Part shown: piece by piece, positions 21,944-24,900 of the stretch
Position numbering within the stretch: the first letter of the stretch is position 1
Layout of the letters: the number at the start of each line of letters is the position of its first letter
From: Eledone cirrhosa
Taxonomy: Eukaryota
Assembly: GCA_964016885.1 (NCBI GenBank)
Contig: OZ024759.1
Coordinates: 27,342,001 to 27,406,000, forward strand
Length of the DNA: 64,000 bases
Reading direction: 5' to 3'
Program-made: the position numbers and the translations under genes
The notes under the pieces: generated by a model
Told to the model about the DNA's origin: nothing
Database searches by the model: none
What the model saw: the letters and a program-made list of their open reading frames with translations, nothing else

Positions 21944-24900
21944 CTACAAGAAAAAAAAGAAACATACAATTAATATATATATATATGTGTGTATATAATA
22001 ATAATAATAATGAAATTATTGTGTACAGTGCTTAAGTGCACTATAACTCATCAAAGGTGCATGTAAAGTACATAGAATAATGTTCAAATGTCAGGAATAT
22101 ATATATCATCATCATTTTACGTCCACTTTTCCCTGCTTGCAAGGGTGGGACAGGTCCTATAATATATAGAAAAGATAACACATGAGAGATAGTGTGTGTG
22201 TTTATCAATGTACCCAAGCCACTGGTTTACTGTCTCGTGCACGCATTTCCTTCTCTCTACCACGTGTTGCAAGGCAGTTATCTTAAGTCCTCTTAGAGTT
22301 GTCTGGAATATATTCACTTACCACACGCTGATGAACCTGGGTGGATTCATTTCAAACACTGATCTTTTGGCGAAACAATCTCTTTGAGTTTGTATGTGTG
22401 TGATGGAGGCACATGGCTTAGTGCTTAGAGCATTGGCCTTGCAATCGAAAGGTTGTGAGTTCAATTCTCAGACTGGGTGATGTGTTGTTTCCTTGAGCAA
22501 GACACTTTATTTCACATTGCTCCAGTTTACTCAGCTGTAGAAATGAGATGATAGGACTGGGGTCCCTATCATTCCACTGCAAAAAAGCCCCCAGCCCACA
22601 CTGTAAAGTGGACGTGTAGGCGCCACGGAAAAAAAGCACCCAGCACTCACTGTAAATGAGGTTGGTGTTAGGAAGGGCATCCAGCTGTAGAAATCAAGCC
22701 AGAATCAGTTCCCGTCCCACCCTTGCAAGCAGGGAAAAGCGGATGTAAAATGATGATGATGATGATGATGCGATATATAGTTATAAGGATCGATCGACTT
22801 TTGTCAAATCGGACCGAGGAAACAATGTTTTCGTCGGTCTTTCCAGTTGCTAATACTATCTATCGGTCGCATCTCCAGGCAGAAGGAGCAACATGAAATA
22901 AAGTGTCTTGCTCAAGGACATACATAACACATCACCCGATCCAGGAATCAAACTCACAACCTCAAGATTGTGAATCCAATTCTCTAACCATTCAGCCACA
23001 CGCCTTTTTATATAGTTATAAAGGTGGGTAAATTCATTTTGATTTATATTTTTAATTATTATGTGTCTACCTCACCTTTCTTAGTTTATAGATTCCATAA
23101 ACTGGTGGTTTTCCCTGTACATTGATAAACACACACACACTCTCTCTCATGTGTTATCTTTTCTATATATTATATTTGAAGAGCCCAGGATTCTTTTTCC
23201 TTTGAGCTCATAAATTGCAGGGACTAACGCGAGTTTATGACTCCGTTAATCTGAATCAGTTATAAACATTTATATTTGTTGAATTACCAACAAATTGAAT
23301 ATCCCGTTTGCTTATTAGTTCAAGAAGACAACAAACAGAGATACAAAAGTCTTATTAGTTTCACGCTTTAAATTGGAAAAACAACCGTTAGGTAGTCTTG
23401 GTAACAAGTAGGAATGCAAACGTGTGTGATTATTAAAGGTGTATGTGTAAAGTATCAAAGATAGTGAGTGTATGCGTATAGCCATGTGGTAGTGGACGTG
23501 TGTATATATATGAATGTATATATATATATATATGTATATATATACATATATATATGTATGTATGTGTGTCGTCATCATCATCATCATCATCATCATCAGG
23601 TTTAGCGTCCGTGTTCCACGCTTGCATGGGTTTGGACGGGGGTTTTCCCACTTGAGGCAAGAGTGGTTGTCTTGCTCGCATAGGACTGTCTGGCGGGTTT
23701 TCTACAGCTGGATGCCCTTCCTAACACCAACCACATTTACAGTGTGGGGCTGGGAGGTTTTTACCGTGTTGCCTACACGGCCACATTTACAGCGTGGACT
23801 GTGTGTTTTTTTGTCGTGACACCTACACGATCTCATTTGTTTCGGCCTGGATGTTGTGGGACCAACATAACTTTACATGTGTATATATATATATATATAT
23901 ATATATATATATATATATATATATATATATATATATATATATATATATATATATATGTGTGTGTGTGCATGTTGAGCCTCTCGGCTGGAACATGTAAAAC
24001 CTCGGCAGGATTTGAACTCAGAAGGTAAAGGGCCGTAACTGTATGCCACAAAGCATAATGTCTGCTAATCCACCGCCCTATAATCGCCAGATAATAATAA
24101 AGATATTCTTACCTTGTTTCTCATTGCACGGATTAAATCTTTTACTGATTCACCATTATATGTCCGGAATTTTCTCAAATCTAATAAAGAATACAAAAAG
24201 ATGAAGTCCATGTATAGATTAACCCTTTAGTTACGAACCCAGTCAAAACAGGCTCTGGTTCGATGAAATAAAGTCACCTATTTTAACCCTTTAGTTACAA
24301 ATCCAGCCAAAACAGGCTTTGGTTCTATGAAATAAAGTCACCCATTTTAAAGGTTTCCAATTAAAATTAAAATCTTCCAACATAATTTCATATAAGAACT
24401 TTACAATAAGTTACAATCTTAATAATGAAATAATTAAGGGTTTCAGTAAATCCCTAAAAATTCTTCATTAACCGTTTTAGACACCAACTCAGCTAAAACA
24501 GCCCTTAGTTCCTTGAAACAAAATCACACATTTTAAAGGTTTCCTACTTAGATTAAAATCTTTTCATGGTAAAGGTTTTAATTTCACATAATATCGAATC
24601 AATGAGATTTTGATAATATTTATTTTGAGAACAATACCTTGACATAAGTACAAGCAGCCGGTTACAGCCAGTTTGAACAGAAAAAGGTGAGAGTATTCTG
24701 GCCAGATACGGCCAGTTTAAATGCTAAAGGGTTAAAGAACATAACAAACCTTCTTGAAGCTCTTCTGTGATATGTGTCTTCCAGTTCTCTTTAATAATAA
24801 ATTCACCATCAACTTCCAACCTCTGAATTATTTCACAAGTTTCAGCTTTCTCTTTCTCTATTCTATCACTAACATCCTGCAACACAAAACAGAGAACAAC

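What the first reader, a model, noticed from the sequence alone, without database searches (positions are those of the whole stretch)
22160..23172. TIR-bounded non-autonomous element containing a full type I hammerhead ribozyme, in the last IRE1 intron
Seen: about 55-bp inverted termini (TAATATATAGAAAAGATAACACATGAGAG...GTGTTTATCAATGTAC at 22160-22214 vs 23116-23172). They enclose CACACG-CUGAUGA-[37 nt]-GAAA-stem III-GUA-UGUGUG (22322-22400) and two later SINE insertions. Known: CUGANGA/GAAA/NUH is the hammerhead core, and Penelope-like elements and retrozymes carry such ribozymes, usually minimal ones. Unusual here: a long monomer-competent stem III, an enlarged domain II, and an A.C apposition at the normally G-C 10.1-11.1 pair in both copies. 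Speculation: A-to-I editing of that A would restore the pair, making an ADAR-switchable ribozyme. This could be an undescribed retrozyme-like family.
Basis: partly seen in the sequence, partly recalled or inferred. Interest (0 to 1): 0.75.

Follow-up and report, generated by a model that had tools for sequence, protein, structure and literature searches.

The report
Pseudoknot-braced hammerhead in Penelope-type retrozyme
This is an old, broken copy of a family of over 1,300 small non-coding repeats, likely copied by Penelope-type jumping-gene enzymes, whose predicted self-cutting RNA motif carries an extra helix kept by paired base changes that likely props it up in place of a normally fixed base pair; cutting is untested and the proposed RNA-editing switch is unlikely.

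Summary
The inverted ends, hammerhead core, A·C apposition, two nested SINEs and position in the last IRE1 coding intron are real, but the reading needs correcting. The 'TIR' is the 5' inverted arm typical of Penelope-like (PLE) insertions: across the family it is absent or 64-815 nt long, and this copy runs 78 nt past the 'right TIR'. The family is a ~540-bp ORF-less head-to-tail monomer (non-LTR retrozyme; at least 1,305 motif hits) with two fixed 3' ends 88 nt apart. The ribozyme is antisense to IRE1, so it is not in the pre-mRNA. The ADAR switch is not supported: position 10.1 is A in 1,236, G in 19 and C/T in 50 hits, and 18 of 30 unselected loci have an A-U pair. What is new here: the enlarged domain II pairs with the leader upstream of stem I. 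This helix ranks first of 60,378 possible 6-bp helices for compensatory change and stops at the stem boundaries, like known stem I-II pseudoknots. The core is conserved across subfamilies. Cleavage, expression and the autonomous partner are unshown. The scan earlier noted octopus retrozymes and a similar pseudoknot/C·A hammerhead in this genome.

The parts
22158..22213 (-).
   Evidence: unit positions 479-532, 93%
22212..22404 (+). Forward arm, 5'-truncated, first part of the ~530-540-bp monomer
   Evidence: 89-91% to best relatives
22304..22320 (+). Leader strands of the predicted pseudoknot: Xb 22304-22309 and Xa 22315-22320
22322..22400 (+). Type I hammerhead: stem I 22322-27/22395-400, core CUGAUGA 22328-34, A10.1 22335, C11.1 22371, GAAA 22372-75, stem III 22375-93, predicted cut after A22394
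22338..22354 (+). Loop II strands of the predicted pseudoknot: Xa' 22338-22343 and Xb' 22349-22354
22405..22769 (+). Nested tRNA-headed SINE ending in (ATG)n
   Evidence: 89% to window 42256-42643; weak Rfam tRNA hit 22412-22475
22787..23009 (-). Second nested SINE, antisense, flanked by a 12-bp duplication of family sequence (22775-22786, 23010-23021)
23010..23174 (+).
23173..23250 (+). Tail: continuation into the next unit, about 14 nt short of the family's second fixed end; real right end of the insertion
   Evidence: unit positions 371-608, 92%
21944..24112 (-). Host: last coding intron of IRE1, opposite strand to the ribozyme
11166..11565 (-). Second family copy in the window, another subfamily (74% to the first subfamily's unit), A·C at 10.1-11.1, no inverted arm

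Best explanation
The interval is an old, twice-interrupted copy of a ~540-bp ORF-less repeat family that is likely a non-autonomous Penelope-type element (non-LTR retrozyme), and its type I hammerhead is predicted to be braced by a pseudoknot between loop II and the leader just upstream of stem I, which likely compensates for a weak stem II lacking the G10.1-C11.1 pair. Shown: head-to-tail monomers, variable 5' truncation, variable inverted arms, two fixed 3' ends 88 nt apart beside (TA)n, core conservation and helix covariation across subfamilies. Inferred: tandem copies are transcribed, the hammerheads cut out unit-length RNA (probably circularised), and a PLE reverse transcriptase/GIY-YIG enzyme copies it starting at fixed points from both broken DNA ends. 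This particular copy has one hammerhead, lies antisense to IRE1 and is likely inert.
For: Architecture: in 25 distinct insertions behind the 30 loci, 18 have an inverted arm of 64-815 nt and 7 have none. In 9 of those 18, one arm ends at unit position 242-251 and the other at 333-335; the same two ends (533, 622 in another unit's numbering) dominate the 60 similarity-picked loci. An autonomous PLE family of this genome shows the same two-end, (TA)n pattern with a ~44-nt tail, as described for PLEs (PMC8557442 passages). 15 of the first 100 listed motif hits sit in same-strand arrays at 534-545 bp (6 dimers, 1 trimer). Longest ATG ORF in the circular young unit is 32 aa, GC 38.5%, circular fold z -2.5 against 30 crude shuffles. 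Core: 0 of 12 core columns carry a shared variant vs 121 of 315 others (P=0.005; partly biased by my pattern), and 0 of 12 vs 87 of 332 in the 56 similarity-picked rows (P=0.04). Helix Xa (-13..-8 with +11..+16 from C3) is the only one of 60,378 possible 6-bp helices with three two-sided changes; Xb ranks fourth. Xa+Xb: 85.6% of cells paired, covariation 0.345 vs 0.193 in shuffles and at most 0.125 when slid. Subfamilies defined without the ribozyme columns show CG/TA/AT, AT/GT/GC, TG/TA/AT and GC/GT/AT swaps. A further subfamily has a compensatory stem I pair: CACGCG with CGCGTG in 13 of 19 classifiable loci, 11 if one further GTA-to-TCA/TTA change is not counted as harmless (30 of 265 hits examined). 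Precedent: stem I-II pseudoknots in ~40% of hammerheads, active with 1-2-bp stem II or a U·U at 10.1-11.1 (PMC3088659).
Against: No cleavage or expression data. The full leader-loop II duplex is strong (-11 to -22 kcal/mol) and displaces stem I in the pseudoknot-free fold of 5 of 11 copies, so it could be inhibitory. RNAalifold on 101 rows gave only a competing 4-bp helix that buries C3-U4 and G12. One 4-copy cluster broke Xa (these rows look shifted by one gap in the alignment). The six core positions not fixed by my search pattern alone give P=0.09. Copies do not preferentially begin at the predicted cut: 1 of 18 loci vs 2 of 4 at a control position 6 nt upstream. No autonomous PLE shares sequence with the unit among 80 GIY-YIG loci examined. 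Many metazoan PLE/retrozyme hammerheads cut poorly in vitro (PMC4209133; 8 of 9 Xenopus dimers did not cut).
Confidence: 0.72

Rival explanations
1. Same retrozyme family, but the leader-domain II helix is an inhibitory or timing fold: it forms first during transcription or in the circle and keeps the ribozyme off or slow, and the 10.1 mismatch is further attenuation.
For: The duplex can extend to ~18-22 bp, probably too long to coexist fully with stem II; it wins the nested minimum-energy fold in 5 of 11 copies. In the circular fold of a young unit neither it nor the active fold forms.
Against: The helix stops 1 nt before stem I and starts 0-1 nt after stem II, touching no core or stem nucleotide; an inhibitor would be expected to invade them. 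Nested folding cannot score a pseudoknot.
Confidence: 0.17
2. ADAR-switchable ribozyme: A10.1 is edited to inosine, restoring an I-C pair and turning cleavage on.
For: A·C is common: 12 of 30 unselected loci, including some of the youngest copies. A·C mismatches are favoured ADAR sites and cephalopods edit heavily (recalled). G10.1 copies exist, some scattered.
Against: G at 10.1 in only 19 of 1,305 hits, fewer than C/T (50). Whole clusters carry C·C (6 of 7 rows in one), which editing cannot repair; 18 of 30 unselected loci are A-U. The window copy is antisense to IRE1.
Confidence: 0.04
3. The unit is only the solo terminal repeat (pLTR) of an autonomous PLE that I did not find, not an independent non-autonomous family.
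For: Insertion marks are those of PLEs; only 80 of more than 10,000 GIY-YIG candidate places were examined.
Against: The unit loops back on itself with no ORF; full dimers and a trimer exist; no ORF-bearing locus examined shares it.
Confidence: 0.05
4. TIR-bounded miniature DNA transposon that happens to carry a hammerhead-like motif.
For: 58-nt, 95% inverted repeat in this copy.
Against: Arm length 0-815 nt, family sequence continues past the 'TIR', tandem units, 5' truncation.
Confidence: 0.02

Closest known systems
Metazoan non-LTR retrozymes (Cervera and De la Pena 2020, PMC7229834; Li, Clavereau and Pollet, bioRxiv 10.64898/2026.07.22.740005)
   Same: ORF-less, low-GC head-to-tail monomers with one type I hammerhead each; monomers, dimers and trimers; autonomous PLEs in the same genome.
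   Different: Monomer ~540 bp (150-450 bp in the 2020 paper; 51-972 bp in the preprint). Long stem III (6-8 bp), 37-nt domain II, no fixed G10.1-C11.1, and a covarying leader-loop II helix instead of the usual loop contacts. No pLTR homology to a PLE found here. The axolotl HHR_Amex2 has a U·U at the base of helix II.
Insertions of endonuclease-bearing Penelope-like elements (Craig et al. 2021, PMC8557442; Cervera and De la Pena 2014, PMC4209133)
   Same: 5' truncation, partial tandems, inverted 5' copy, tail at one end only, (TA)n neighbourhood, hammerhead upstream of the 3' end.
   Different: No ORF; tail 88 nt vs 30-40 nt. Metazoan PLE hammerheads are described as minimal, with an extra nucleotide after A9 and a conserved G10.1-C11.1; PLEs of this genome seen here fit that.
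Pseudoknot-stabilised hammerheads (Perreault et al. 2011, PMC3088659)
   Same: Base-paired contact between loop II and the strand flanking stem I; short stem II; mismatch at 10.1-11.1 can be tolerated.
   Different: Here the helix is bipartite and long (6 + 6-8 bp, extendable) and sits in a high-copy animal retroelement; it is untested. The crystallised 'PK hammerhead' (PMC11300833, passages) is a different wiring, in which the pseudoknot replaces helix II.

Membership tests
Non-LTR retrozyme | ORF-less head-to-tail repeats of a few hundred bp | tested here: met
   530-545 bp period, longest ATG ORF 32 aa
Non-LTR retrozyme | At least two consecutive units each with a type I hammerhead | tested here: met
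   6 dimers and 1 trimer among the first 100 listed hits; the window copy itself has one
Non-LTR retrozyme | Self-cleavage in vitro | not testable with these tools
   needs an assay
Non-LTR retrozyme | Expressed as linear and circular RNA | not testable with these tools
   no run on record as RNA was listed
Non-LTR retrozyme | Sequence relationship to the pLTR of an autonomous PLE | tested here: inconclusive
   no match in 80 GIY-YIG loci out of more than 10,000 candidates
PLE-type insertion | 5' truncation, inverted 5' copy, tail at one end | tested here: met
Type I hammerhead | Core CUGANGA, GAAA, NUH with stems I-III | tested here: met
   stems I and III 93% and 91% of cells paired; Rfam models do not detect it
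Type I hammerhead | G10.1-C11.1 pair | tested here: not met
   70 of 101 rows unpaired, 18 A-U, 12 G-C, 1 G-U (sample enriched for rare variants by design)
Pseudoknot-stabilised hammerhead | Covarying helix between loop II and the stem I flank | tested here: met
Pseudoknot-stabilised hammerhead | The helix is needed for fast cleavage | not testable with these tools
   needs disruption and rescue
TIR DNA transposon (MITE) | Fixed-length terminal inverted repeats that bound the element | tested here: not met

The most novel reading that the evidence does not exclude
An animal retrozyme lineage has replaced the near-invariant G10.1-C11.1 pair with a long two-part leader-loop II pseudoknot, giving a monomer-active hammerhead that Rfam models miss; its subfamilies (A·C, C·C, G-C, A-U at 10.1-11.1) form a natural series for testing how peripheral pairing frees the core and how ribozyme speed is tuned to retrotransposition.
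Probability: 0.5. Interest if true: 0.58.

Novelty: new variant of a known kind. Interest (0 to 1): 0.42.

Why it matters
The element class and its link to Penelope-like elements are published, and the IRE1 location is incidental. The value is in the ribozyme: a covariation-backed pseudoknot in a high-copy animal hammerhead that has lost its most conserved helix II pair, which standard models miss. It suggests that animal hammerhead counts are underestimates and gives a cheap, decisive bench test. The fixed double ends also mark where a PLE enzyme starts on such RNAs.

Tried and rejected
Rfam scans found no hammerhead. Autonomous partner: 30 GIY-YIG loci, 20 long-ORF stretches and 30 loci of a Poseidon-like family gave only one 68-nt family fragment inside a TA run and low-complexity matches; a short look-alike near one Neptune-like 3' end scored z 1.3 and was dropped. 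An apparent A17>G excess at the cleavage site (265 hits) looked like editing written back to DNA but is a register effect of a subfamily with stem I CACGCG/CGCGTG. 5' ends at the cut site: not enriched in the small test; about 7 of 30 loci join at or 1 nt before it, without a matching control. Expression: no RNA holder listed; contigs of two guessed-RNA runs gave no cover of the family, and one run of unknown kind covered part of a young unit; none of this is evidence on expression or editing. No ancestral states were inferred, so independent compensatory events are not counted; clusters and column counts stand in. Rows dropped: 12 of 113 copies were left out of alignment A1 (near-duplicates, deletions), 7 of 113 from the 361-column alignment. 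Literature searches that found no description of this family or of a retrozyme pseudoknot by title or abstract start; no natural ADAR-switched hammerhead. Supplements of PMC7229834, PMC3088659 and the preprint were not read and could hold similar motifs.

Full report
Observation. A second copy lies at about 11166-11565. KEN and kinase domain exons place the element in the last coding intron of IRE1 (21944-24112), but the gene is on the minus strand and the ribozyme on the plus strand, so the IRE1 pre-mRNA does not contain it. The genome (3.0 Gb) is probably an octopus; this is my inference and the wording of earlier scan notes, not a tool result.

The family. DNA searches of the own genome gave 941 and 1,422 candidates. 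A 13-nt motif across the core has 1,305 exact hits against 14 for reversed controls, and a further subfamily missed by that motif accounts for most of the 30 examined of 265 hits. The unit is a 530-545 bp head-to-tail monomer with no ORF. Copies are 5'-truncated, often partly tandem, and end at two fixed points 88 nt apart, 170-180 and about 260 nt downstream of the predicted cut. Among 25 distinct insertions taken in genome order, 18 have an inverted arm of 64-815 nt, and in 9 of these one arm stops at each fixed point. The window copy fits: its left arm stops at the first point and its right arm runs on to 23250. So the 'TIR' is the inverted 5' copy with a one-sided tail described for Penelope-like elements (PMC8557442, passages). 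An autonomous PLE family here shows the same double end beside (TA)n. RT plus GIY-YIG ORFs up to about 940-1,100 codons stop to stop are present, but none of 80 loci examined shares sequence with the unit. By the criteria of Cervera and De la Pena 2020 (PMC7229834, passages and section 14) and Li et al. (bioRxiv 10.64898/2026.07.22.740005, parts 1-3 of 5) the family is a non-LTR retrozyme at the DNA level.

Is the ribozyme under selection? In 106 aligned copies, none of 12 core columns carries a variant shared by 8 or more copies, against 121 of 315 other columns (P=0.005). About half the rows were picked by a core pattern; the 56 similarity-picked rows give 0 of 12 vs 87 of 332 (P=0.04), and the six unbiased core positions alone P=0.09. 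Stems I and III are 93% and 91% paired over 101 rows, and one subfamily changes a stem I pair from A-U to G-C.

The large domain II. It is complementary to the leader upstream of stem I. A blind scan of all 60,378 possible 6-bp helices ranks leader -13..-8 with loop II +11..+16 first, the only one with three two-sided changes; the adjacent segment ranks fourth. The two segments are 85.6% paired with covariation 0.345, against 0.193 shuffled and at most 0.125 slid; the shuffle ignores relatedness. Clusters defined without the ribozyme columns show the swaps between subfamilies, with one 4-copy cluster unpaired, probably through misalignment. The helix abuts stems I and II and overlaps neither, the geometry of the stem I-II pseudoknots that Perreault et al. 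showed to be needed for fast cleavage and found with 1-2-bp stems II; they also report a U·U at 10.1-11.1 (PMC3088659, passages and section 8). The rival is an inhibitory hairpin: the duplex is strong and displaces stem I in 5 of 11 nested folds, and RNAalifold returned only a misfold that buries core bases.

The ADAR idea. Position 10.1 lies upstream of the cut, so if editing were needed for cleavage, copies made from cleaved RNA would carry G (inference). It is A in 1,236, G in 19 and C or T in 50 hits. Clusters with C·C and with G-C both amplified, and 18 of 30 unselected loci have A-U. The position is simply relaxed. It may correspond to the variable nucleotide after A9 in PLE hammerheads (PMC4209133, parts 1-2 of 4); that is speculation. 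No RNA data could be had. PMC9901934, PMC2837043 and PMC11300833 (passages) gave no rate for A·C at this pair.

Mechanism. Shown: architecture, ends, conservation, covariation. Inferred: tandem copies are transcribed, the pseudoknot-braced hammerheads release a unit-length RNA, probably circular, and a PLE enzyme copies it from fixed start points at both DNA ends, giving more-than-unit, tandem and inverted products. Not shown: cleavage, circles, the partner. The window copy belongs to an old subfamily (92% to a relative, 79% to a young unit), has one hammerhead and two SINE insertions, and is likely inert.

Verdict. A new structural variant within a known class. The scan has noted octopus retrozymes with PLE marks several times and a pseudoknot-braced C·A hammerhead in 500-560-bp repeats of this genome, possibly this family; I had reached both readings before seeing those notes (notebook). 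Interest 0.42.

Noticed in passing
L191-L220 (e.g. G000:C3:308733214-308734200): A very abundant young Poseidon-like PLE (26,145 candidates, 95-98% amino-acid identity) with CUGAAGA-A-GAGAU/AUCUC-GAAA (extra A after A9), a long AU-rich domain III and two fixed 3' ends ~44 nt apart beside (TA)n.
   Followed up: partly
L187, L190, L068-L090 (3' regions of Neptune-like PLEs): Three Neptune-like families seem by eye to carry minimal hammerheads with the U3-A8 core variant and a palindromic helix III; one has an extra base before GAAA.
   Followed up: no
window ~9700-12900 vs L032 (C644) and L033 (C18): The second family copy and its flanks recur at 98-99% identity on two other contigs: recent segmental duplication or unmerged haplotype.
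   Followed up: partly
window 13217-14224 (+): Uninterrupted 336-codon frame with a CSN8/PSMD8/EIF3K domain (E 4e-33): intronless gene or retrocopy.
   Followed up: no
window 8327-10701 (+): Broken frames that look by eye like a Helitron Rep/helicase (PIF1-type) remnant; not searched.
   Followed up: no
window 28965-30457: About 30 tandem 48-bp units related to the body of the SINE nested in this element, inside an IRE1 kinase-domain intron.
   Followed up: no
window 22414-22523 and 22885-22998: The two nested SINE heads are inverted (77%) and could form double-stranded RNA in the IRE1 pre-mRNA, a more ordinary ADAR target than A10.1.
   Followed up: no
window 23251-23372: Two other short repeats follow the tail; one recurs near family copies in L011, L028, L054 and the other beside window copy 2.
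   Followed up: partly
L118, L120, L123, L124: A young sub-lineage has a 14-nt duplication that lengthens stem III.
   Followed up: no
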